Source of the DNA: a virus
Virus record (IMG/VR): IMGVR_UViG_3300033144_003744
Span: 1-64,000 of that record
Length of the DNA: 64,000 nucleotides
Strand: one strand, 5' to 3'
A program made the position numbers and the translations under genes. Shown here in pieces: positions 9,634 to 54,316 of the stretch (position 1 is its first letter; each line of letters begins with the position of its first letter). The notes beneath the pieces were generated by a model. The model saw only the letters and a list, made by a program, of their open reading frames with translations, ran no database searches and was not told where the DNA came from.

Positions 9634-10599
9634 TCATATATTTTCATCATATAATTTGTTACTTTCTAATATTCTATTTTTATTTTTATATCTTTTTTCT
9701 AAAAATAATTTAAAATCTAATTTTTTAAATAAATTTGGTTGATTACACCAAGCTGCTATATCAATAAAAAAATTACTATATTTGCTATCCCAACAGGAAA
9801 TATCTCTCATTATATAAGGTAATATTTTTTCATTTCTTATTAGTTCTATTCTTTTTATAGTATCAGATAATGGCATATTAGGATTTATATATATGAAAAA
9901 TTTAAATTGATATGGTTTTCTCCAATTAAGTAAAGATAATTTTTTAAAAATAACTTCTTTAAATTTTATATTATCAAAAGCAAATATATACTCACCCATA
10001 TAATTTAACTTTGACAATAAAATAGAATTTTCTTCATCTATTAAACGAATATCTAATCCTTGATTAAATTGACATTTTATTTTTTTATCAATTAATTCTT
10101 GTAATATATCTTTATGATTAGGCAAAGCTAAAAAATTATTATCTAAAAATTTTACTTTCTTATGTCTAATTATATCATCAACAGAATTTACTTGTTTAAT
10201 ATATCCCTCTTTTTGGGGCACAATACAAAAATTACAATTACGTATACATCCCCTAGAAATAAAACCATATGAAGTATCATTATCGGGATATATTGAATAA
10301 TCACATTCACATGATTCAATTTCATCTGGTAATTTTTCAGTAAGAGATGCTCCTGGTCCACCAAAAATTGCATTTTCTGCATTTATGTATTGTCTTGAAC
10401 CAGAAAAAATTACACTACAATAAATTTTATCGTATTTCTCTGTATTTATATTATGAGTCATCTTTTTTCTGTTGGGATAATATGGTATTTTTAATTGTAT
10501 AAAATCAACATCATATCCTTTCTTTTTATAAAAATATGATAATTTCATTAATGCTATATTAGGTATAGTTGAATCTGCATCTATCAATAAAATTTTCAT
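9634..10599 (-). CDS. Radical SAM protein
   Basis: SRGCIRNCNFC (CxxxCxxC), FLDNNFLA, QGLDIRL; N-terminal LIDADS..PNIALMKLS. Confidence 0.85.
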   Translation of the reverse strand: MKILLIDADSTIPNIALMKLSYFYKKKGYDVDFIQLKIPYYPNRKKMTHNINTEKYDKIYCSVIFSGSRQYINAENAIFGGPGASLTEKLPDEIESCECDYSIYPDNDTSYGFISRGCIRNCNFCIVPQKEGYIKQVNSVDDIIRHKKVKFLDNNFLALPNHKDILQELIDKKIKCQFNQGLDIRLIDEENSILLSKLNYMGEYIFAFDNIKFKEVIFKKLSLLNWRKPYQFKFFIYINPNMPLSDTIKRIELIRNEKILPYIMRDISCWDSKYSNFFIDIAAWCNQPNLFKKLDFKLFLEKRYKNKNRILESNKLYDENI

Positions 10600-14475: not shown

Positions 14476-16089
14476 CTACCATTGATCAGCGCCTCTTATT
14501 CTCTTAGATGTCAATAAAGTATTTAAATTCCATCCCATACTATTAAAAATATTTTCTAATTTGCCAGGAATTAATTTATCAATCATTGCATCAACATCTA
14601 TTGTTAGATTTTCTATTTGTTCTGCGGTTTCAAAGCCCACAACACCATCATCTTTTACATTTAATTGTTCAGCAGCTTCATCCATCATTACAATAATCAT
14701 ATTTACCACATCACCTTCAGAATTAAGGTTAGTTTTAAGATTATCATTTGCCCAAATTGCTGCCTTTACATGGTCACTCTGTACTTTATATTTTTTCAAT
14801 GGTTTTTTTATCTTTTTCTTAATACAAATATCCTCAATCGAAAACTCATTATTTCTTAATCCTTGAACAATATTCTTCACATCAGAAAATATTACTTCTT
14901 TATCTTTTTCGTGTAAAATATTATGTATTGTATCTTCCTGAAGAGTTTTCATTATTGTGGTAGTAAGTTTCTTTTTTGTCTCGAAGCCCTGAATTTTATA
15001 TCCTTTCTTATCATCCATTGGATACATTCCAGCATATCTATTATTACCAACAAGTAAGAAACTTTCCATACATTTTTCCAATTCAATTTTAAATTTTCCG
15101 GGGATTAAATTATATTTTTCATCCAATTCATGCATAGATTCATTTATTGAATTTTCTATATCTTTAGCAATTCCAAGAAGTTCATTATAATCTATATCAT
15201 TCCAAGGAACATGTATAAATACAGAATCAGTATGTCCATAAATTATCTCAAATGATGGATAATATTCTTTAATATGTTCTATTGAGTGCTTTAAAGCTTG
15301 TCTACTTAACCAAGTGATACTTGCAGCAATGTCAGGATCATACAATCTTGATCCAGCATAAGCCATCCAACCATAGAATGAATTTTTTAGAAACTTTGTG
15401 GTTCTCTGTTTATTATCCCACTTGTTCCAATCTGAAGACTTTTCTGGGTACTTATCTCTTTCAACCTTGTAGTACTCACGCTTATTCTGAATGTCCCCTA
15501 GAAGGCTTGTGGTCAATCCTGGTGGACTTGACACAAAGGATACTCCATTACCTAATTTAATATCTCCATCTTTCTTTTTTGTTTCAAAAGACATGTTACA
15601 AGCTTCCATTGAAGAAGGATAAAGAGATTTATAATCTAAAATTATAACATTCTTATAAAATCCAACTTTAGGCTCTATAATCATTGCTCCTTCATACGGA
15701 ACTTTTTTATGATATCTACCAGTTGAAAGAACAATACCTCTCTCTTTTGCTTTGCGAAGATGTGCTATGTCAACAAGATCCTTATTATAAAATGTATCGG
15801 TAAATGTACAACCGGATAATCTTTGTCTATCCATAAATGTATCTACAATACTAAATTCATTATCAATCCATACTGTCCCTTCGACATCTCTTTTACTGTA
15901 TTGCAAGAAATTCTCAAAATCTTTTTCGTAATCATCCATTCCATACAATTTTCTAATCGGTGCATCGTTATTTTCAAGAACTGCTCGTAATCCTTGAGGT
16001 CCTATATCTCCATCACTTAATTTTTTATAACCAAACATTAAATCAAAGCAAATTCTTCCGAGTATAGGTGTATTTATTTGTTTATGCAT
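14476..16089 (-). CDS. polB: Family B DNA polymerase, C-terminal part (ExoIII and polymerase domain)
   Basis: GRICFDL, YSKRDV (ExoIII), DYKSLYPS, KFLKNSFYG, YGHTDS; GAGGT SD before ATG at 16089. Confidence 0.93.
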   Translation of the reverse strand: MHKQINTPILGRICFDLMFGYKKLSDGDIGPQGLRAVLENNDAPIRKLYGMDDYEKDFENFLQYSKRDVEGTVWIDNEFSIVDTFMDRQRLSGCTFTDTFYNKDLVDIAHLRKAKERGIVLSTGRYHKKVPYEGAMIIEPKVGFYKNVIILDYKSLYPSSMEACNMSFETKKKDGDIKLGNGVSFVSSPPGLTTSLLGDIQNKREYYKVERDKYPEKSSDWNKWDNKQRTTKFLKNSFYGWMAYAGSRLYDPDIAASITWLSRQALKHSIEHIKEYYPSFEIIYGHTDSVFIHVPWNDIDYNELLGIAKDIENSINESMHELDEKYNLIPGKFKIELEKCMESFLLVGNNRYAGMYPMDDKKGYKIQGFETKKKLTTTIMKTLQEDTIHNILHEKDKEVIFSDVKNIVQGLRNNEFSIEDICIKKKIKKPLKKYKVQSDHVKAAIWANDNLKTNLNSEGDVVNMIIVMMDEAAEQLNVKDDGVVGFETAEQIENLTIDVDAMIDKLIPGKLENIFNSMGWNLNTLLTSKRIRGADQW

Positions 16090-16090
16090 T

Positions 16091-16567
16091 TTAGACCTCA
16101 TTTAGACATACATATTCTTTAAATAATTCCTTTGCCTTTTGATTATAAGCTCTTGCTGCATCATCTTCATTCTCAAAATAACCCAAACTATAATTTTTTT
16201 TATTAAAACCTATTTGTCCCTGCCATTTTTTAATATGTTTATGCCAACTAACACCTTTATAACCAGAGGTATTATTTTTTTGTTTTATTTTATTCATTTG
16301 ATTTTGAGAATGTGTTACTATTCTAAGATTATTTTTTTGGTTATTTAATGTATTTCTATCTATATGATCAATTTCAAATCCTTGGGGTTCACCCATTATT
16401 AATCTATGCATCTTTTTTCTTTTTGATTTACCATTTATTTTAATATCAGAAATTGCATACTTATTTTTTTTATCATGTAAATGCCATTTATACTGAGATA
16501 ACATATCATAATCTTCATCATCGACCAAAACTATACCTTTATTATTTGATAATTTTATTTCTTTCAT
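16091..16567 (-). CDS. HNH-AP2 homing endonuclease inserted in polB
   Basis: MHRLIM, IDHIDRNTLNNQKNNLR, SGYKGVSW, LGYF..EDDAARAYN. Confidence 0.92.
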   Translation of the reverse strand: MKEIKLSNNKGIVLVDDEDYDMLSQYKWHLHDKKNKYAISDIKINGKSKRKKMHRLIMGEPQGFEIDHIDRNTLNNQKNNLRIVTHSQNQMNKIKQKNNTSGYKGVSWHKHIKKWQGQIGFNKKNYSLGYFENEDDAARAYNQKAKELFKEYVCLNEV

Positions 16568-17214
16568 GCTTCCACTTGTCCAATTGGTGATAATTCATTA
16601 GGATTCAATCCAATTCTGTACATACGATTAATAATATAGGGAATATCAAAATTTACTAAATTCCATCCACAAATCATATCGGGATTATATTCTTTCATAT
16701 CCTTAGTAAAATATTTCAACATTTCTTTTTCAGATTCAAAAATATATATGTTCCAATTATCATTATGCCTTTCATTTTCACCAACATATCCTTCTTTCCA
16801 CGATAAAGTAATATATTCATTAATAAAGGAATCCCAATATGTTATTGCAATTATTGCTTTATCAGTCTTCTTTGTGTCAAGTCCCATATCGGTTTCTATA
16901 TCAAGATGCCAAACTCTTGGTTCATATTCAGGAAGAGTTTCGAAGTTATCAATTAAAAATCTGTTCTCTATTGAAACATCAACCTCATATGAATCAGTTA
17001 ATGATTTAGCAAAATAATATCTTAAATTTGGTTTGTTGTAATACTTCTTAAATACAGTTGTATTGTGTATTGTTTTTGCTGTTCCTTTATTTGTAACTTC
17101 ATTAGAATAAAAATATGGAAAAAATACTTCACGTTTTTCTATAAGTTCTCTTCCTTCTCTGTAACGATAGTAAATACTTGGCTTTCCCTCTGTTCCTAAA
17201 TTATCAATAATCAT
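16564..17214 (-). CDS. polB: Family B DNA polymerase, N-terminal part (ExoI and ExoII)
   Basis: PYFY, RFLID, LDIET, GWNLVNFDIPYIINR, LSPIG. Confidence 0.9.
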   Translation of the reverse strand: MIIDNLGTEGKPSIYYRYREGRELIEKREVFFPYFYSNEVTNKGTAKTIHNTTVFKKYYNKPNLRYYFAKSLTDSYEVDVSIENRFLIDNFETLPEYEPRVWHLDIETDMGLDTKKTDKAIIAITYWDSFINEYITLSWKEGYVGENERHNDNWNIYIFESEKEMLKYFTKDMKEYNPDMICGWNLVNFDIPYIINRMYRIGLNPNELSPIGQVEA

Positions 17215-21595: not shown

Positions 21596-22501
21596 TTATT
21601 TTGCCCGCTTCAATAAAACTCTTTTTAATACAGGAACGCATTGTTTAGCTATGAGTCCACGTAATTCCTTAAAATTTATTCTGTCAAAATCTTTGTATAT
21701 CTCAATTGAATGTTCTAAAAAAATATCTTCTGCAACCGCGTTAAATAATACAGGAATTAGAGACATATCTATTTTATATCCTTCATCCGATAATTTATGA
21801 ATTGTTTTTTCTATTCTTGCATTAGTGCCATAAGTCAAAGATATTAATTTTGTAGAATTACTCTCTTTTGGTGGCTGATCACTGCCCCCAAATGCCAATT
21901 TATTTTTTTCTTTGAACTCATCCGTTACTATTTTTGCAAATAAAGGCTGTTCAAATTTATTTAATCTGCTGTAATTCTTTAAAACTACACCCTCTGCTGA
22001 ACCGTCTTTATATGCTGAATTTTTTATACATTCCTCTAATTCTTCTATAGAAATTTCACTTCCATCTCTTTCAAAGTGAATGTGAATAAATTCAAGCCCA
22101 AGAGATTCAAATTTTTCTTTTGCTTCTTTCCATGATAAAAATAATTCAGTTTCTGTATTCCAAATATCATAACCTATAAATCCAGGGACATCATCATTAT
22201 ATTTTATAGTATGACGTTGAAGGCTTTCTCCTATGTAAAGATATTTTGAACTAAATTTATCTTTATATAACCCGTATGCTTCTATAACAGGAAGTATTGC
22301 ATTCCATCCTTTTGGGTCTTTCTTATCTACCATAACTCTATTTCTGCTAGCAAAAGTTAATTCGTTGTTATCTAAGAAAAAACAAAAATTTGCACCATCC
22401 ACTTTTTCTTGAACAACGACCTTCCCATCAAAAATTCCTTCTGTCTCAATTGTTCCGAGTGCTTTTATTTTTATGTATTTCTTCCATATCATATTAATCA
22501 C
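21596..22501 (-). CDS. ATP-dependent RNA ligase (Rnl2-like)
   Basis: QEKVDGAN motif I, SRN, GE, FIGYDI, EGVVLKN, AKIV..EFKE. Confidence 0.85.
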   Translation of the reverse strand: MINMIWKKYIKIKALGTIETEGIFDGKVVVQEKVDGANFCFFLDNNELTFASRNRVMVDKKDPKGWNAILPVIEAYGLYKDKFSSKYLYIGESLQRHTIKYNDDVPGFIGYDIWNTETELFLSWKEAKEKFESLGLEFIHIHFERDGSEISIEELEECIKNSAYKDGSAEGVVLKNYSRLNKFEQPLFAKIVTDEFKEKNKLAFGGSDQPPKESNSTKLISLTYGTNARIEKTIHKLSDEGYKIDMSLIPVLFNAVAEDIFLEHSIEIYKDFDRINFKELRGLIAKQCVPVLKRVLLKRAK

Positions 22502-25905: not shown

Positions 25906-25938
25906 ATACACTTAATATGTGCTTATCGTATATATAGA
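25906..25938 (-). promoter_or_regulatory. Viral promoter motif, copy 1
   Basis: TATA followed by ATACGATAAGCACATATTAAGTGTAT; 25/26 identical to 48198-48223. Confidence 0.7.
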
Positions 25939-45816: not shown

Positions 45817-46457
45817 TCAGTGCAAATTAAATACTACATTCTCATTACCCTTAAAACACCTTAAACATTTATCGCACGTCATTTTAGTATGATCACCAGT
45901 AGTCGCAGGACATACAAAAGAATTATTGATTCTATCGTCAGATTCAATGTAAGCATACTTAACATTCTTAGGCTTTTCTTTTGGAAGTTTACAATCTGGT
46001 TCAATACTGAAATAAAGTTTAAGATTTTTAGGTATGTTGTTAAACTTTAGATAGTCGTGTGTACTTCTATTATTATAACTTTTTGTATAAGCCAAAAATG
46101 TTGTATTTGGAAATTCATTTATAATTTTAAACCATGCATTTATATAATCTTGGCTAAAAAAATCACCGGAACTATGAAGCCTAAAATATTTAGGACTATA
46201 GATAGTCAGAAAATCCCGCATTTCATGCTTAAACGTATCTAAATCATGAATACATACATGTAGGTTAGTATCCCATGCCCTTTTAGTTCCTGGATATTGT
46301 CTATAACTCTTAAGAGCATAACAATACTTCTTACATTCAGAACAATTTAAACATGATTTAACCGGTGTTAAATTAAACTGTGGGATAGTACCAAGTTTAG
46401 AATTACCCAATGATATTCTAATACTTAGATTTTTATGAAAATTAGCTTTATTCATAA
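45817..46457 (-). CDS. Phage Gp88-like Cys-rich (radical-SAM-related) protein
   Basis: GNSKLG, FNL....C....C..YCYA, FRLHSSGDF, AYTK, CP......C..C..C. Confidence 0.7.
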
Positions 46458-47150
46458 TGAAGCACCTCATCATAATAATCATCAACGTCATGATCAGAAA
46501 TGTTAAACATTTCATAACATTCTATATCTAATACTGCCGCAATATCTTCCATCCTACTAAATGTTTTTTTATCTGTCATAATATCACCCCTCCATTTTAA
46601 CAATAACTTTTTTAACTTCATCAAGATTATCAAATGTCATAAAAACAATTGTCATTTTTTGATTTTCAGATAATGAAGATTTTTTTAATAATTCGTTACG
46701 TTGTCGTTCAAGTGTAACGTGCGAGTGCAAAGATAATCCATAACTATATAAAAAATCGTCCGGTATTGGTTTTAATGATACCACTGTATGTTTACCGGCA
46801 TTTGATTTTTTATCTTCATTAGAAGATTTTATTATCCATGCATCGACCTCATAAGTTGGAATACCCCATAAGTCCTTTGTTGATTGATATATCGAATATC
46901 TATATTCATTCATGATTGATCACCTATGTATAAAATTACTACCTAATCTTTTCTTAGCTGCATCAATTCTTTTATCATGCCTTTTCAGTTTTGAAAAATG
47001 TCCCATACCCATTTTAAACACCACCAGAATTTAAAGCTATATATACAACAATTCCCCATAATGATATCATACATAATACACATAATCCACATACAATTTT
47101 TTGCATTATACTCATAATATATCCTCCGATTAATTTATACTTAAATTTAA

Positions 47151-47372
47151 TTATTCTATTGGTCCATATGCAGATTCAATAATTTCATAACATCTATCAC
47201 AATCTAAAGTACTTCCTTCCAAATAATAATCAAATACATAATCATTATATTCATTTACATTTAAACCCCTTGCGCATATTTCACACAATACTTCATTTGT
47301 TTTTTTATGCACAAAAATTAAGGGGTATGCATGTTCATGATCAAATATATCTACTGGTATTTCATTTATCAT
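47151..47372 (-). CDS. Small Zn-finger protein, first gene of the leftward early operon
   Basis: YPL...LCEIC...CDRC...IESAYG; GGAGG SD directly after the hammerhead. Confidence 0.6.
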   Translation of the reverse strand: MINEIPVDIFDHEHAYPLIFVHKKTNEVLCEICARGLNVNEYNDYVFDYYLEGSTLDCDRCYEIIESAYGPIE

Positions 47373-47388
47373 AATATTAGTCCTCCGA

Positions 47389-47448
47389 TATTTTTGTTTC
47401 GACTTAATAAAGTCTCATCAGTAATGGTTTAACCATTAGACAAAAATA
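47389..47448 (-). ncRNA. Type III hammerhead ribozyme
   Basis: TATTTTTGTC / TAATGGT-TAA-ACCATTA / CTGATGA / GACTT-TATT-AAGTC / GAAACAAAAATA: complete core and three perfect stems. Confidence 0.93.
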
Positions 47449-47800
47449 ACCACATTAAACACCTAAAGGCTTTTCAAACCTTCGAAATGTTGGGCCTCTT
47501 TATTTGCTTGTGATCATTCCACCCACCAGAGATTCAAAGGATTGTAGGAAATCCCTTGTACACAGGCTTAGAGACATTCGTATTACCTCATGACAATTCT
47601 AAGCGTCTATGTGTTGAGAGTATAAAGTGGAACTCATACCTACCTATGTATGTGTACATACTTTTAACTTCACTGCAATTTTTAGCCTGTCTTATTATCA
47701 CCTGATTCTGATTACTTCGCAAATTTTTGAGTTCGTGTGTGTGTAGCCCTATCGGCACCGGTTAGGCACCTGGTTTTATCCCCTTACTTTGGGATACATT
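47449..47800 (-). ncRNA. Long structured leader or ncRNA upstream of the hammerhead
   Basis: ORF-free and GC-richer; hairpins TATCCC/GGGATA, GCTTAGA/TCTAAGC, AAGGGATT/AATCCTTT, AAGGTTT/AAGCCTT. Confidence 0.5.
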
Positions 47801-47812
47801 ACAATTGATTCC

Positions 47813-47828
47813 TAAGTATATATACTTA
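47813..47828. promoter_or_regulatory. Palindromic TATA element
   Basis: TAAGTATATATACTTA perfect palindrome just upstream of the leader's first hairpin. Confidence 0.55.
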
Positions 47829-48192
47829 TCGGTAGTAAAAACGATAGCAATAGATGCAGTTAAAAGAAAAAGAAAAAGTAAATCATATATGTAGTGCCCA
47901 CAGTCTACCGATAGCGTTTTTATTAGACCTGGCCGTGCCCATGAAAACAGTATAAAAAAATTATCAAAAACAAGGTTTCATACTGTGAACTTGAATTGAA
48001 ATAAATTTATGGGATACATTTAAATATTTAGTTAAGAATATTTAGAAAATGGTAAAAAATAAATAGCTTCTACCCAAAAAATTAGGGGGAGTATTTTAAA
48101 CACTATAATGTATTAAACTAACGATTTTTATTTTTTAAAATTTTTTAAAATATTTATACTATACAATAATTCTTTAAATGTAACCCAACACC

Positions 48193-48223
48193 TTTAAATA
48201 CGATAAGCACGTATTAAGTGTAT
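48193..48223 (+). promoter_or_regulatory. Viral promoter motif, copy 2 (leaderless ATG at 48222)
   Basis: TTTAAATACGATAAGCACGTATTAAGTGTAT. Confidence 0.7.
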
Positions 48224-48360
48224 GGATTATGAAGCATCAGATTCATATACTTATGATTATAGTATAGATAAACCATTTAAAGATAAAATGGGAAATGTAT
48301 ATGGAGTAATGGATGAATCTTATTTACTTCTAAATGTAACAAAGAAAGATTCTTTAAAAC

Positions 48361-48714
48361 TGGAGATTACTTATGAATGAAATAGATAATAGAGACGAAG
48401 AATTAATAGATGACTTTATGAAATGTATGATGTACTGATAGAGTTGGGATAATTATGATACAAGAATTTCTCACAATACCGTTTAATTTATATGATTGTA
48501 TAAGACATCCAGAAAGATATCCTGAACTGTGTGAAGATATGTTAACTTTGGAGATTACTTATGAATAGAGATGAAATGACTAAAGATTTATCACAACAGA
48601 TTTTAAAGGTGTTAGTTTATGGTAGTACTTTAGATCCAGATGATGTTGTATTTATAGATTATACAGATTTTGATAAAGATTCTATGGAGTTAAAGATTAC
48701 TTATGAATGAAATA
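48361..48714 (+). repeat. Repeated gene-junction sequence (TGG)AGATTACTTATGAAT x3
   Basis: Copies at 48361, 48549 and 48694; each encodes ITYE-stop and the next ATG. Confidence 0.8.
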
Positions 48715-50471
48715 ACAGAAGAGGAATTTTATAATTTCCTATACACACAAAATATTATAACAGATCTTATAGAAGAAAAGACTAAAGAACTGTCTATTAT
48801 TTTATATAATAGATTACCTGAAGGTGAAATGTGTGATGTCGATATATTTGAATCTGAATTTAGGTCGAGATGTATTTTTGTTGAATTTGAAGAATATAGA
48901 TATGGTGAATCTAATAGAGATCAATTTGAACTTCCAATAAGATTTTTATATGATTCTGATTATCCTGCTGTTTATAAAGAAGAACATGAAGAAAAAAAAG
49001 ATTACAGCAAATAAAAAGAAAGAAGTTAAACGTAAAAAGGAAGAGTATGAAAAACTTTATCTTGAAAATTTTGAAAGAGATGAATATAATAGGTTGAGAA
49101 AGAAATATGAATAGACTATTAAAATTTTATCATAGATACCAAAATCAACGTAGGATTCATACTTGGGCTTCTTTTTGGATAGTTGTTAAAATGGCTTGGG
49201 CTCAATCTGGTAGAACAAGAGGTTATGATTCCAGTGTAGTTTGTTATAAAGATATTAACACGTATGATTGCTCACCAGTTTCTATAGGGATTGCTTTAAA
49301 TTCATGTAAGAAAAATGAGTATACAACAGTTATATTTTCCTGTAATCATGAATATGAATATTCTAATGGTATAAGAAAATGTTTGAACTGTGGTAAAGAG
49401 AATAGATATTATTTAAAAATTTAGAGGTGTGGGTATGTTTAGATTTAATATAGATGATTTAAAAGAAGTGCAATTTGAGTTAAATGGACTGATTGAAAGG
49501 ATAGAACGTGTAAATAATAACAGTGAAATTATAGGTCAGAAAATGATAGATTCTGGTATTCCAGAAGAATATCTAATTAAAATAGTTGGAATTATAGCAC
49601 AGGAACTTTATGAATAAATCTAATAGAGATAAATTAAAATCTTTAACAGATGAAGAATATAAATATCTTATGGATTCATTAGAAGAGAATGAAGAGTTGA
49701 TGGTTAGTTTATCTAATGTAACTTTGGTGCATAAAAATGTATAAAATAGAACTTTTAACAGAAGATAACCGTATGCTTATGAAGCATGAAAACTTTGTAA
49801 AGTTTGTAGAAGGTCAAAGATTACAAGTTTTTGATGAGAGAGGTGAAACGGTGTATGCTGTTTATAATGGAATCATAGTGGAGAGGATTGAATGATTACA
49901 CAAAGGATTATGAGTTTTATGTATGATATAACTCCATTTGTTATTATTTTTTCTGTAATGTAGGTGAATAAATGTTTAAAGTAGAAATGAATTCGATAAA
50001 AATGACAGTATGGATGGAAAAAGAGGAGTTTAAAAACTTTATGAATGATAATTTATTATCCGTTTTTACAGATGGTGAATTGATATTTACGATGTATAAT
50101 GGCTTTGTAATTGGATGTATAAGGCATGATAAAAAAATTACAAATATTAAATGTATTAACTGAAATAGGTTGGGGCTTATTTGTTATGTTTCCAGCAATG
50201 GTTATAATTATAAGTCCTTCTTTATAATTGGTGATAATATAATATCTTATCCAATAGCATTAATATATGTTGGGTTAATTGGAATTTCTATATATATTAC
50301 ACAAAATCTATGGTGTTTATTAGCATTATTTTTTGCACCAAGTGTAAGTATAGGTAATTAATATGAAAGATAAAATAGAATGGAAAGGAATGATGATTCC
50401 AGATAAAGATTGTTTTAGGGAAGAAAAGAAATGTACACCAGATTGTCCTTCATATGATATGGGGTGGTTAT

Positions 50472-51104
50472 ATGATTGAATTGTGGAAAACACAAGTCGG
50501 TTCTCATCTTTGGAAGATGAATCACGAAGGTAGTGATAATGATTATTTTGTTGTGCATATTGCTCCCTCTGAAGATATTTTAAATGGTAGTATTACTAGG
50601 TTGAGTTCCAAGGTTATGAAGATTAAAGGGGATGATTTTGTATCTCATGAAGTTGGAAGGGTTGTAGATGAGCTTATTAAAGGTAATATTAACTTTTTAA
50701 CTGGTATTATGTCTGATATTATTGTATATGATAGGTCTTGTTATCTGTATGAATTGAGGGATTTAGTTAAAGAGTATGGACAGACTAAAGCTTGTGTACA
50801 TAGTATTAAGGGTCTAGCGATGCATAATTATAAAAAATATGTTTTAGGCAATAAAAATGATCCAATGATTAGTAAAAGATGTGGAATTATTAATAGAAGT
50901 TTATTATTTGGTATTAATTTATTAAGTGGCGAAGGATTTAAGTTTAATCCAGTAATAAACCCAACACCGAAAAATACATGTTATCTATTTAAAGGATTTG
51001 AATATGCAGTTAAAAATAGTTCATTCCCAGAAAAAATAAATTCCGAACCATTTAGAGATTGGTTGTATAATCTTAGATTAGATGAACTTAATGAAAAGAT
51101 ATAA
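50472..51104 (+). CDS. Predicted nucleotidyltransferase (pol-beta superfamily, RlaP/YcgL-like)
   Basis: GSHLW.MN..GSDND, HEV, KGNINF. Confidence 0.8.
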   Translation: MIELWKTQVGSHLWKMNHEGSDNDYFVVHIAPSEDILNGSITRLSSKVMKIKGDDFVSHEVGRVVDELIKGNINFLTGIMSDIIVYDRSCYLYELRDLVKEYGQTKACVHSIKGLAMHNYKKYVLGNKNDPMISKRCGIINRSLLFGINLLSGEGFKFNPVINPTPKNTCYLFKGFEYAVKNSSFPEKINSEPFRDWLYNLRLDELNEKI

Positions 51105-53074: not shown

Positions 53075-54316
53075 ATGAATTTATTAAAAAAATTACCAGA
53101 CTCATATATAGTAGGTGGAGCAGTAAGAGATACTATCATGGGTAGAAATCCAAAAGATATTGATATAGTAACTTCAATGCTTCCAGAGGATGTATTAAAG
53201 AATTTTGACTCTCATCCATTGGGTCAGAAATTTGGTACAGTTGTAGTAAGAGACGATATCGGTGAAGTAGAAGTCACTACAATGCGTAAAGATTTGACAG
53301 GTGGTAGACATCCAGTAGTTGAGTTTACTGATAAAATTAGAGAAGATTTATCCAGAAGAGATTTTAGAATGAATGCAATGGCTATGAATGAATATGGTAG
53401 AATTATTGATCCATTTAAGGGTCAGCAGGATATTATAAACAAACGTATTTCTAGTGTTGAAGATCCTTTAATCACTGTACACCCAATACACGGGGATCCA
53501 CTGAGAGTACTTAGAGCAATTAGATTTTCTATTATTTTAGATTTTGATATTGAACAAGAATTACAAGTAGCAATAATGGATTCCGATCTTTCTACTTTAT
53601 CTGGAGAAAGAATATACTCTGAACTCAAGCAGATGTTTAGTGAGCCTGAGGAAGCCATGAGAGCTTTATATTTCTACAATGTATTGTCCAAGGTACTACC
53701 GGAGGTAGATGATTTATCATGGTGTGTACAGAGTGTTCAGTGGCACCCTGAGGGAGATGCATTAGAGCACACCATTCTTGTAATGGAAAGAGTAAAGGAA
53801 CATGGTCCATTAGCTGTAATGGCCGCTATGTTACATGATATAGGTAAACCTGTAACCAGGGAAGGAATGACCTATCATGGCCATGCAAAAGCTGGAGTAG
53901 AAATTGCAGAATCTATTATGAGAAGATTGGGTAGACCTAAAATTGAAGTTGAAGCTGTTAAATTTGTAGTAGAAAATCATATGAAAATTAAAGAAATAGA
54001 AAATATGAAAGTATCTAAATGTAGAAAATTATATGATAGTCCACATTTTGATTTGCTTATGTTGATTGCCAGGGCTGATAATGCAGATAAACATAATGAT
54101 TCTATGTTTGAATTTATTGAACAAGATAATTTAGTTAAAGAAATTAATATTGAACCTTTGCTTGATGGATATGATCTAATAGATTTAGGTCTAAATGGTT
54201 CTGATATTGGTAATGTTCAAAAAATATTAAAAGAATTACAATTAGAAAAAATTATTAGAACTAAAACTGAAGCTATTAGTTATGTAAATATATTTAAATA
54301 TTTAGGTGGTGAATAA
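53075..54316 (+). CDS. cca: Class II (bacterial-type) CCA-adding tRNA nucleotidyltransferase with HD domain
   Basis: VGGAVRD, DID, EVTTMR, DL.RRDF..NAMA, DPLRVLRAIRF, ERI..E, HPEGD..EH, LHDIGKP. Confidence 0.9.
   Translation: MNLLKKLPDSYIVGGAVRDTIMGRNPKDIDIVTSMLPEDVLKNFDSHPLGQKFGTVVVRDDIGEVEVTTMRKDLTGGRHPVVEFTDKIREDLSRRDFRMNAMAMNEYGRIIDPFKGQQDIINKRISSVEDPLITVHPIHGDPLRVLRAIRFSIILDFDIEQELQVAIMDSDLSTLSGERIYSELKQMFSEPEEAMRALYFYNVLSKVLPEVDDLSWCVQSVQWHPEGDALEHTILVMERVKEHGPLAVMAAMLHDIGKPVTREGMTYHGHAKAGVEIAESIMRRLGRPKIEVEAVKFVVENHMKIKEIENMKVSKCRKLYDSPHFDLLMLIARADNADKHNDSMFEFIEQDNLVKEINIEPLLDGYDLIDLGLNGSDIGNVQKILKELQLEKIIRTKTEAISYVNIFKYLGGE

What the first reader, a model, noticed from the sequence alone, without database searches (positions are those of the whole stretch)
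47389..47448. Canonical type III hammerhead ribozyme just ahead of the first early gene
Seen: all core nucleotides (CUGAUGA, GAAA, GUC) and three perfectly paired stems on the minus strand; predicted cleavage between 47439 and 47438; the GGAGG SD of ORF 47151-47372 follows within a few nt. Known: hammerhead cleavage leaves a 2',3'-cyclic phosphate and a 5'-OH. Inference: self-cleavage releases a ~350-nt upstream RNA and gives the early polycistronic mRNA a 5'-OH hairpin end, which may resist 5' exonucleases. Hammerheads are seldom described in archaeal viruses.
Basis: partly seen in the sequence, partly recalled or inferred. Interest (0 to 1): 0.82.

Follow-up and report, generated by a model that had tools for sequence, protein, structure and literature searches.

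The report
Hammerhead ribozyme before viral early operon
A textbook self-cutting hammerhead RNA sits between a conserved gene-free stretch and the first gene of one arm of an uncultivated marine-sediment virus; the ribozyme is real, but this kind of ribozyme in this position is already known from other viruses.

Summary
The motif is real. The minus strand at 47448-47389 carries every hammerhead core base, a GUC cleavage site (cut between 47439 and 47438) and three perfect stems of 7, 5 and 9 bp. Rfam Hammerhead_3 gives 41 bits, E 1.4e-7, below its 48.5-bit cut-off. None of 1000 shuffled genomes gave an equally good match. Contigs of relatives from three sediment or seep samples keep GUC and stem I through compensatory changes. 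The motif fits a subfamily of viral type III hammerheads whose stems I and III covary.

It lies 16 nt ahead of the first ORF of the leftward, replication-gene arm, and directly after a 486-nt non-coding block that is conserved in relatives. The most likely function is co-transcriptional cleavage that separates this leader RNA from the operon mRNA.

The layout is not new. Haloviruses HF1 and HF2 carry a hammerhead 13 nt before the first ORF of an early transcript (PMC3088659). In IMG/VR contigs, 9 of 10 type III hammerheads (7 of 8 distinct sequences) sit just before a ribosome-binding site. This scan also noted a ribozyme-released leader on other DNA (e1-5910376).

An archaeal host is plausible but unproven. 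No RNA data exist. Verdict: new member of a known kind.

The parts
47389..47448 (-). Complete type III hammerhead ribozyme (stem III 9 bp, stem I 7 bp with 3-nt loop, stem II 5 bp with 4-nt loop)
   Evidence: Sequence. Rfam RF00008 41 bits, E 1.4e-7. MFE fold. Descriptor hit. 0 of 1000 shuffles as good.
47438..47439 (-). Predicted self-cleavage site: after C17 (47439) of GUC and before U1.1 (47438). It leaves a 2',3'-cyclic phosphate on the upstream RNA and a 5'-OH on the mRNA.
   Evidence: Position follows from the hammerhead numbering on the sequence. The chemistry is established hammerhead knowledge (review PMC6765202). Cleavage itself was not tested.
47422..47438 (-). Stem-loop I (UAAUGGU / ACCAUUA, loop UAA)
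   Evidence: Relatives' contigs read UACCGGU/ACCGGUA (X1, X2) and UGUCGGU/ACCGGCA (X3): five two-sided changes, no broken pair.
47415..47421 (-). Core CUGAUGA (C3-A9)
47401..47414 (-). Stem-loop II (GACUU / AAGUC, loop UAUU)
   Evidence: The same stem II occurs in 16 hammerheads of 14 IMG/VR loci.
47397..47400 (-). Core GAAA (G12, A13, A14, A15.1)
47382..47386 (-). Shine-Dalgarno GGAGG of the first leftward ORF, 3 nt after stem III
47151..47372 (-). First ORF of the leftward arm: 73 aa with CxxC...CxxC, no family match
   Evidence: One homologue at 89% identity in the protein collection.
47440..47925 (-). Conserved, GC-enriched non-coding block upstream of the cleavage site; candidate leader or ncRNA released by the ribozyme. 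The strand and 5' end are inferred, not shown.
   Evidence: GC 35-45% against about 27%. No Rfam match at E<=10. Relatives' contigs lie on 47440-47925 at higher summed depth than on the flanks. Fold z-scores are not significant.
47466..47482 (-). Hairpin in the leader, 27-43 nt upstream of the cut, with two compensatory pair changes in relatives (47467/47481 and 47468/47480)
   Evidence: table 3: all contigs listed at these places in X1, X2, X3 and X5 carry both changes. A palindromic protein-binding site would look the same.
47444..47519 (-). Predicted alternative helix (47519-47509 with 47454-47444) that competes with stem III in longer contexts
   Evidence: MFE of a 221-nt context. The hammerhead-constrained fold is 1.2-2.8 kcal/mol above the MFE. 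No comparative support.

Best explanation
This is a genuine type III hammerhead self-cleaving ribozyme of the kind common in tailed-virus genomes. The leftward primary transcript of this virus begins somewhere in the 47.8-48.1 kb divergent region. It runs through a conserved non-coding leader (47925-47440), then the ribozyme, then the first small ORF.

As the ribozyme is transcribed it folds and cuts after C47439. The upstream leader RNA is released with a 2',3'-cyclic phosphate. The operon mRNA is left with a 5'-OH. Its first nucleotide is already paired in the stem I hairpin, and the 49-nt ribozyme remnant sits directly before the SD.

Shown: the motif, its statistical significance, its conservation with compensatory changes, and its position. 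Inferred: transcription of this strand, cleavage, and the consequences. The inferred consequences are uncoupling of leader and mRNA fates, a protected mRNA 5' end, and a ribozyme-defined leader 3' end.
For: - All core bases and three perfect stems are present.
- Rfam E-values are 1.4e-7 and 5.6e-9.
- 0 of 1000 shuffled genomes gave an equally good match.
- Four runs were laid, from three independent samples (X1 and X2 gave identical results). One X3 contig (480 nt) spans 47391-47660; in the listed (cut) tables it differs inside the ribozyme only in loop 1 (47431) and loop 2 (1-nt deletion at 47407). Two further contig ends (X1/X2, X3) keep GUC and a perfect 7-bp stem I with other letters.
- The X3 contig continues into unlike sequence beyond 47391, so the ribozyme travels with the leader.
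- In an alignment with 5 IMG/VR type III hammerheads selected only by core and stem II, 97.9% of cells pair, against 76.2% in shuffles (0 of 500 as high). Nine pairs change on both sides. Slid controls give 29-49%.
- 9 of 10 type III hammerheads in those loci (7 of 8 distinct sequences) are followed within 45 nt by an SD-like motif and ATG, as here.
- Precedent: in HF1/HF2 the mapped mRNA 5' end lies within 3 nt of the hammerhead cut, 13 nt before the first ORF (PMC3088659; HF2 annotation).
Against: - The Rfam score is below the curated cut-off (41 against 48.5). Two other clear viral type III hammerheads also score 43.8.
- In contexts of 91-621 nt the hammerhead fold is not the MFE: it lies 1.2-2.8 kcal/mol above it, with a modelled share of 0.2-3%. 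An upstream segment can pair with the stem III 5' strand.
- The loops are very short (3 and 4 nt) and vary among relatives. The loop-loop contact that makes natural hammerheads fast at low Mg2+ is therefore not evident.
- There is no RNA evidence of any kind and no mapped promoter.
- Only three relatives' contigs reach into the ribozyme and only one spans it. Full sequences of relatives could not be fetched.
- In X5 no contig covers 47396-47439 at >=80% likeness.
Confidence: 0.72

Rival explanations
1. The ribozyme exists mainly to make the 3' end of a functional viral non-coding RNA, the conserved 47440-47925 block. The effect on the downstream mRNA is incidental. One promoter would thus give a discrete ncRNA with a cyclic-phosphate end plus an mRNA, without a terminator between them.
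For: The non-coding block is covered by more relatives' contigs than the flanking genes: summed depth in X3 is up to 196, against 31 over the ORF. The ribozyme stays attached to the block where the downstream sequence diverges (X3 contig spanning 47391-47660). A hairpin in the block shows two compensatory changes. GC is 35-45% in a 27% genome. Substitutions inside the only ORFs of the block fall on second codon positions, and single-base indels are frequent there.
Against: Fold energies of the block are no better than shuffles on either strand (z -0.12 and +0.52). There is no Rfam family at E<=10. The block sits at the GC-skew turning point and could be an origin or a regulatory DNA region. 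A palindromic operator would also show paired changes. In other viral contigs the same ribozyme type sits between small coding genes with no ncRNA.
Confidence: 0.3
2. Cleavage is conditional. An upstream leader segment (47519-47509) pairs with the stem III 5' strand (47454-47444) and holds the ribozyme inactive until something (a protein, ion level or temperature) frees it. The ribozyme would then act as a switch on early-operon expression.
For: The MFE of the 221-nt context forms this 11-bp helix instead of stem III. The hammerhead fold is 1.2-2.8 kcal/mol less stable in all four contexts tried. Perreault et al. proposed salt-tuned regulation for the HF1/HF2 variant.
Against: This is pure nearest-neighbour prediction that ignores the tertiary energy of the hammerhead core. 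Some relatives carry a 1-nt deletion at 47511/47512 inside the proposed helix, with no partner change listed. The core here is canonical, unlike the salt-dependent HF variant.
Confidence: 0.1
3. The motif is not a working ribozyme. It is either a chance or decayed match, or part of a DNA-level element (origin or promoter region) at the strand-switch point. Or the operon is transcribed from a start inside or after it, so that it is never made as RNA.
For: It scores below the Rfam cut-off. No RNA data exist. It lies next to the cumulative GC-skew minimum. A TATA-like run lies in loop 2. TATA-like words are enriched in intergenic DNA of this genome (AGTATATA 6 observed against 0.62 expected).
Against: 0 of 1000 shuffles gave an equal match. 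All invariant core positions are intact. Compensatory stem I changes in relatives, with differences otherwise confined to loops, point to selection on the RNA fold. The SD starts 3 nt after the motif, so a start inside it would give a leader without room for normal promoter spacing.
Confidence: 0.07

Closest known systems
Hammerhead ribozyme, type III (Rfam RF00008, clan CL00010)
   Same: Full core (CUGAUGA, GAAA), GUC cleavage triplet, G10.1-C11.1, loops on stems I and II, open stem III. Full-length model match.
   Different: Scores 41 bits, under the 48.5-bit gathering score. It has AU-rich stems and unusually short loops (3 and 4 nt), so the usual loop-loop contact is not evident.
HHphage hammerhead of haloarchaeal tailed viruses HF1/HF2 (Perreault et al. 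2011, PMC3088659; annotated in AF222060.2 at 10292-10359)
   Same: It sits a few nt (13 there, 16 here) before the start codon of the first ORF of a polycistronic early/replication transcript of a tailed virus. The mapped 5' end there agrees with ribozyme cleavage. Many small CxxC ORFs lie nearby in both.
   Different: The HF ribozyme is annotated as type II and has a core insertion linked to high-salt activity. It follows a small coding ORF, not a 486-nt non-coding block. The host here is unknown and the habitat is marine sediment or cold seep.
Intercistronic hammerheads of phage and prophage operons (Perreault et al. 2011; review PMC6765202), and the IMG/VR type III hammerheads found here (L008, L010, L012, L015, L016, L019)
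   Same: Same subfamily geometry (stem I 7 bp with 3-nt loop; stem II GACUU/AAGUC with a 3-4-nt loop in L008, L012, L019). Same placement just before an SD and ATG of a small ORF.
   Different: Those sit between coding genes, often two per operon (L012, L019). Here a single copy divides a non-coding leader from the operon.
Ribozyme-released non-coding leader of a phage noted earlier in this scan (e1-5910376)
   Same: As described in that note: a roughly 317-nt conserved non-coding leader cut from the early message by a hammerhead.
   Different: It is on other DNA.

Membership tests
Hammerhead ribozyme type III (RF00008) | Invariant core C3 U4 G5 A6 N7 G8 A9 and G12 A13 A14 | tested here: met
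   CUGAUGA at 47421-47415 and GAA(A) at 47400-47397.
Hammerhead ribozyme type III (RF00008) | Cleavage triplet N-U-H with the U16.1-A15.1 pair, H17 not G | tested here: met
   GUC at 47441-47439; U47440 pairs with A47397.
Hammerhead ribozyme type III (RF00008) | Three helices around the core, with stems I and II closed by loops and stem III open | tested here: met
   7, 5 and 9 bp without mismatch. It is the MFE of the isolated element.
Hammerhead ribozyme type III (RF00008) | Score at or above Rfam's gathering cut-off | tested here: not met
   41.0 against 48.5 bits, E 1.4e-7. Two other clear viral type III hammerheads score 43.8, so the cut-off is strict for this viral subfamily.
Hammerhead ribozyme type III (RF00008) | Helices kept by compensatory change in relatives | tested here: met
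   Stem I in true relatives: 5 two-sided changes, 0 broken pairs, in 2 contig ends, and 1 spanning contig with loop-only changes. Stems I and III across 6 viral type III sequences: 97.9% paired, 0 of 500 shuffles as high. Stems II and III of true relatives were seen in one contig only.
Hammerhead ribozyme type III (RF00008) | Loop 1 - loop 2 tertiary contact giving fast cleavage at physiological Mg2+ | tested here: inconclusive
   Loops of 3 and 4 nt that vary among relatives (UAA, UAG, AUA, AAA; a 1-nt deletion in loop 2). No contact could be assigned.
Hammerhead ribozyme type III (RF00008) | Site-specific self-cleavage | not testable with these tools
   Needs in vitro transcription or end-specific RNA-seq.
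HF1/HF2-type 'hammerhead at the head of an early transcript' | Ribozyme directly before the first ORF of an early polycistronic unit | tested here: met
   16 nt before the ATG at 47372. Minus-strand ORFs follow without a strand change.
HF1/HF2-type 'hammerhead at the head of an early transcript' | mRNA 5' end mapped at the cleavage site | not testable with these tools
   No RNA run holds the stretch.
HF1/HF2-type 'hammerhead at the head of an early transcript' | Archaeal host | tested here: inconclusive
   For: the best full-length PolB hits and the best capsid hit are haloarchaeal tailed viruses at 22-25% identity; an ERCC4-HhH nuclease and an ATP ligase with N domain; no peptidoglycan hydrolase among the 10 distinct large late-region ORFs scanned; sigma-70-like sites are not enriched. 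Against: a class II CCA-adding enzyme with HD domain; terminase and portal hit bacterial phages as well or better.
Any Rfam 15 family for the upstream block 47440-47925 | Covariance-model match | tested here: not met
   Only a snoRNA chance hit at E 9.9 in 47440-48230.

The most novel reading that the evidence does not exclude
The hammerhead is the 3'-end-forming device of a new non-coding RNA of about 350-490 nt. This RNA is the best-conserved part of this region in a diverse group of uncultivated, probably archaeal, tailed viruses of cold-seep and marine sediments. The RNA would be released with a 2',3'-cyclic phosphate. The virus's own RNA ligase, RlaP-type nucleotidyltransferase and CCA-adding enzyme with HD domain might then act on the ribozyme-made ends.
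Probability: 0.25. Interest if true: 0.6.

Novelty: new member of a known kind. Interest (0 to 1): 0.35.

Why it matters
The biological role of hammerheads in phage and archaeal-virus operons is still described as elusive (review PMC6765202, passages read). This locus is a clean single-copy case. One canonical ribozyme sits exactly at the junction of a conserved non-coding leader and the first gene of the replication arm, in a virus lineage found in the three independent sediment or seep samples laid. That makes it a convenient test of two ideas: that such ribozymes serve to define an ncRNA 3' end, or that they give the mRNA a protected 5'-OH hairpin end. If the host proves to be archaeal, it would be a canonical-core counterpart of the salt-dependent HF1/HF2 variant. 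It does not reveal a new kind of element.

Tried and rejected
Relatives of the locus.
- The 73-aa ORF, the GP88-like ORF and the terminase gave no close relative in IMG/VR. There was one 32%-identity GP88 locus (L002) without a hammerhead.
- Exact or gapped DNA patterns from the leader and the ribozyme-leader junction found nothing in viral contigs or in genome contigs.
- They found only two chance matches in metagenome contigs (L003, L004: coding-like sequence, no hammerhead fold).
- blastn of 46000-49000 against GenBank phages found no match.

Expression. No RNA holder is listed for the stretch.

Other ribozymes.
- No second hammerhead of any type was found.
- No other Rfam ribozyme was found in 47200-48230. 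The wider Rfam scans are insensitive here, since they miss even this hammerhead.
- A retrozyme-like excision and circularisation of the leader, which needs a second ribozyme, is therefore not supported.
In a type III hammerhead stem I is closed by a loop, so no free arm pair exists.

Leader as a thermodynamically special fold: not supported (z -0.12 and +0.52).

Host domain.
- A sigma-70 scan, a terminator scan, an intergenic k-mer count, one Atlas look-up of the ERCC4 nuclease, an NrdD look-up in GTDB genomes (one 39% hit in a Bacillota genome, uninformative) and tblastn of four hallmark proteins together gave only a lean towards archaea.
- The -35/-10-like site at 47989-47960 lies in a stretch that relatives skip (joints 47882/47925 to 48054), so I do not take it as the promoter.

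Not used: complex prediction, structure prediction and the search of protein representatives, because no claim here rests on protein binding or fold. Supplementary files of PMC3088659 (alignments, figures S1-S7) were closed. They may hold further viral type III examples that bear on how ordinary this subfamily is.

Full report
WHAT IS THERE. On the minus strand, 47448-47389 reads as follows: stem III 5' strand, GUC, a 7-bp hairpin with a 3-nt loop, CUGAUGA, a 5-bp hairpin (G-C first) with a 4-nt loop, GAAA, stem III 3' strand. Every invariant hammerhead position is present and none of the 21 stem pairs is mismatched. The cut would fall between C47439 and U47438. GGAGG starts 3 nt after stem III, and the ATG of a 73-aa ORF is at 47372.

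IS IT MORE THAN CHANCE. Rfam's Hammerhead_3 model matches full length at 41.0 bits. The E-value is 1.4e-7 for a 501-nt search and 5.6e-9 as the only match in the 86,903-bp virus record. The score is under Rfam's 48.5-bit cut-off, so the default scan is empty. Scans of 64 kb and 12 kb at E<=1 also miss it, which I attribute to the speed filters. The isolated element folds into the three-way junction as its MFE (z -2.45). In 1000 dinucleotide-preserving shuffles of the genome it finds a loose hit in 14 and an equally good one in 0. No canonical type I or II hammerhead is present.

RELATIVES. IMG/VR, JGI metagenome contigs, GTDB genomes and GenBank phages gave no relative of this locus. Short words of 47000-48300 do occur in 20 DNA runs of 11 studies. 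I laid four of them, from three independent samples because X1 and X2 gave identical results: marine sediment, an unlabelled metagenome and cold seep.

Contigs of relatives at >=80% likeness pile up on the non-coding stretch 47440-47925. In X3 the summed depth there reaches 196, against 31 over the ORF. Three contigs reach into the ribozyme:
- One X3 contig (480 nt) spans 47391-47660. In the listed (cut) tables it differs inside the ribozyme only at 47431 (loop 1) and by a 1-nt deletion at 47407 (loop 2). Beyond 47391 it continues into unlike sequence.
- Two contig ends keep GUC and a perfect 7-bp stem I with other letters: UACCGGU/ACCGGUA and UGUCGGU/ACCGGCA, against UAAUGGU/ACCAUUA here. That is five two-sided changes and no broken pair.

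This is the main evidence that the RNA fold is under selection. It rests on few and partly incomplete sequences, and further loose ends were not shown by the tool.

A VIRAL SUBFAMILY. A pattern holding only the core and this stem II found 16 matches in 14 IMG/VR loci. By inspection all are complete hammerheads: type III in L008, L009, L012 and L019 (two copies), type I in the rest, three of those before tRNA genes. Aligning the window's ribozyme with the five type III ones gives 97.9% paired cells against 76.2% in shuffles (0 of 500 as high). Nine pairs change on both sides, and slid controls give 29-49%. Stem II was fixed by the search and says nothing.

My descriptor then found 10 type III hammerheads in 8 of these loci (8 distinct sequences). 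Of these, 9 of 10 (7 of 8 distinct) are followed within 45 nt by an SD-like motif and an ATG. L012 and L019 carry two each, flanking small ORFs. L008 and L009 also score under the Rfam cut-off, at 43.8 bits. The window's element is thus an ordinary member of a recurrent viral class, 'type III hammerhead just before a ribosome-binding site'.

CONTEXT. The record is a tailed virus with direct terminal repeats. It encodes portal, terminase, HK97-type capsid and tail tube proteins and has about 28% GC.

Genes switch strand between 47372 and 48222. The leftward arm has small ORFs followed by RNA ligase, ATP-dependent DNA ligase, a split PolB and NrdD. The rightward arm has small ORFs, an RlaP-type nucleotidyltransferase and a CCA-adding enzyme, followed by structural genes. 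The ribozyme is therefore at the head of the replication arm.

The 486 nt upstream of the cut are GC-enriched (35-45%), match no Rfam family and hold no tRNA. They contain a hairpin (47466-47469 with 47479-47482) whose two inner pairs are both exchanged in every listed contig of relatives. Its fold energy is not better than shuffles on either strand. The block also lies at the GC-skew turning point. An RNA role is therefore likely but not proven, and its 5' end is unknown.

HOW IT MOST LIKELY WORKS. Co-transcriptional self-cleavage separates the leader from the operon mRNA. The mRNA keeps 49 nt of ribozyme, starts with a 5'-OH, and has its first base paired in stem I. The leader ends in a 2',3'-cyclic phosphate. 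The position is shown. Cleavage, transcription and the stabilising effect of these ends are inferred from hammerhead chemistry and from general knowledge that 5'-terminal hairpins and 5'-OH ends slow 5'-end-dependent decay (recalled, not from a call).

One complication: in contexts of 91-621 nt the hammerhead fold lies 1.2-2.8 kcal/mol above the MFE. An 11-bp helix between 47519-47509 and 47454-47444 competes with stem III. This may be a prediction artefact, an aid to product release, or a switch. Comparative data do not support it.

WHAT IS KNOWN. Perreault et al. 2011 (PMC3088659; passages read) report hundreds of bacterial and prophage hammerheads and multiple-ribozyme operons. They also report the HHphage variant of haloviruses HF1/HF2: 13 nt before the start codon of a helicase that is the first ORF of an early polycistronic transcript, with the mapped 5' end within 3 nt of the cut. 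The HF2 record annotates it as type II at 10292-10359, before the helicase CDS at 10371. A 2020 paper lists it among conserved features of unknown function (PMC7230728; one passage read). A 2019 review calls the role of bacterial and phage hammerheads largely elusive and mentions processing of polycistronic transcripts (PMC6765202; passages read). A 2026 survey counts 1,305 hammerheads, 259 of them type III, in deep-sea sediment RNA viromes (PMC13481778; passages read). Searches for hammerhead with 'archaeal virus' and with 'cold seep' gave nothing closer.

HOST.
- For: the best full-length PolB hits and the best capsid hit among isolates are haloarchaeal tailed viruses at 22-25% identity. There is an ERCC4-HhH nuclease and a ThiF-type E1. 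There is a papain-like protease with a lectin domain, and no peptidoglycan hydrolase among the large late-region ORFs scanned. Sigma-70-like sites are not in excess.
- Against: a class II CCA-adding enzyme with HD domain. Terminase and portal hit bacterial phages as well or better.

VERDICT. This is a new member of a known kind. Interest is modest; it would rise if the leader proves to be a discrete ncRNA family of archaeal sediment viruses.

Noticed in passing
window 47440-47925: A GC-enriched, ORF-poor block that more relatives' contigs cover than the flanking genes. It has a hairpin (47466-47482) with two compensatory pair changes and matches no Rfam family. It is a candidate new viral ncRNA, or an origin or regulatory region at the GC-skew minimum.
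   Followed up: partly
window 47882-48190: Relatives' contigs join 47882 or 47925 directly to 48054, so 128-171 nt here are absent or replaced in them. 48056-48099 has the highest summed depth of the whole stretch in X3 (204). This suggests a second conserved element near the start of the rightward arm.
   Followed up: no
window 48198-48221 and 25908-25931: A 24-nt stretch directly before the first rightward ATG recurs inverted at 25931-25908 (23 of 24 identical). It may be a shared promoter or leader element.
   Followed up: no
window 21596-22501, 50454-51104, 53075-54316: The virus encodes an RNA ligase (PF09414), an RlaP-type nucleotidyltransferase of RNA-repair systems, and a class II CCA-adding enzyme with HD domain. 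ARAGORN found no tRNA gene in the window. Any link to ribozyme-made RNA ends is speculation.
   Followed up: partly
L007:9108-9965 (genome 86011-86868): A CorA-like Mg2+ transporter gene (PF01544, E 1.1e-21) lies near the right end of the virus genome. This is unusual cargo for a virus that also carries a Mg2+-dependent ribozyme.
   Followed up: no
L006:485-2374 (genome 63984-65873): A 629-aa papain-family protease with lectin-like and Ig-like domains lies in the structural block. No peptidoglycan hydrolase was seen among the late-region ORFs scanned. It may be a lysis or entry enzyme for a non-murein envelope.
   Followed up: no
window 14476-17214: Family B DNA polymerase is split. The exonuclease part (16564-17214) and the polymerase part (14476-16101) are separated by an HNH-AP2 endonuclease ORF (16091-16567).
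   Followed up: partly
window 25955, 34056, 39609, 39734, 47818, 54471: The word TTATATACTTA, or a close form, recurs six times, five of them in or beside intergenic DNA (25955 lies inside an ORF call). AGTATATA occurs 6 times in intergenic DNA against 0.62 expected. It is a candidate promoter box; the type, archaeal TATA or bacterial -10, is undecided.
   Followed up: partly
L012:4964-5362 and L019:3617-3975: Unrelated IMG/VR contigs carry two type III hammerheads each, flanking single small ORFs. Each ribozyme is preceded by a GC-rich hairpin and followed by an RBS.
   Followed up: partly
L011, L014, L018: Type I hammerheads with the same stem II. In L014 and L018 they lie about 75 nt upstream of a pair of tRNA genes in IMG/VR contigs.
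   Followed up: no
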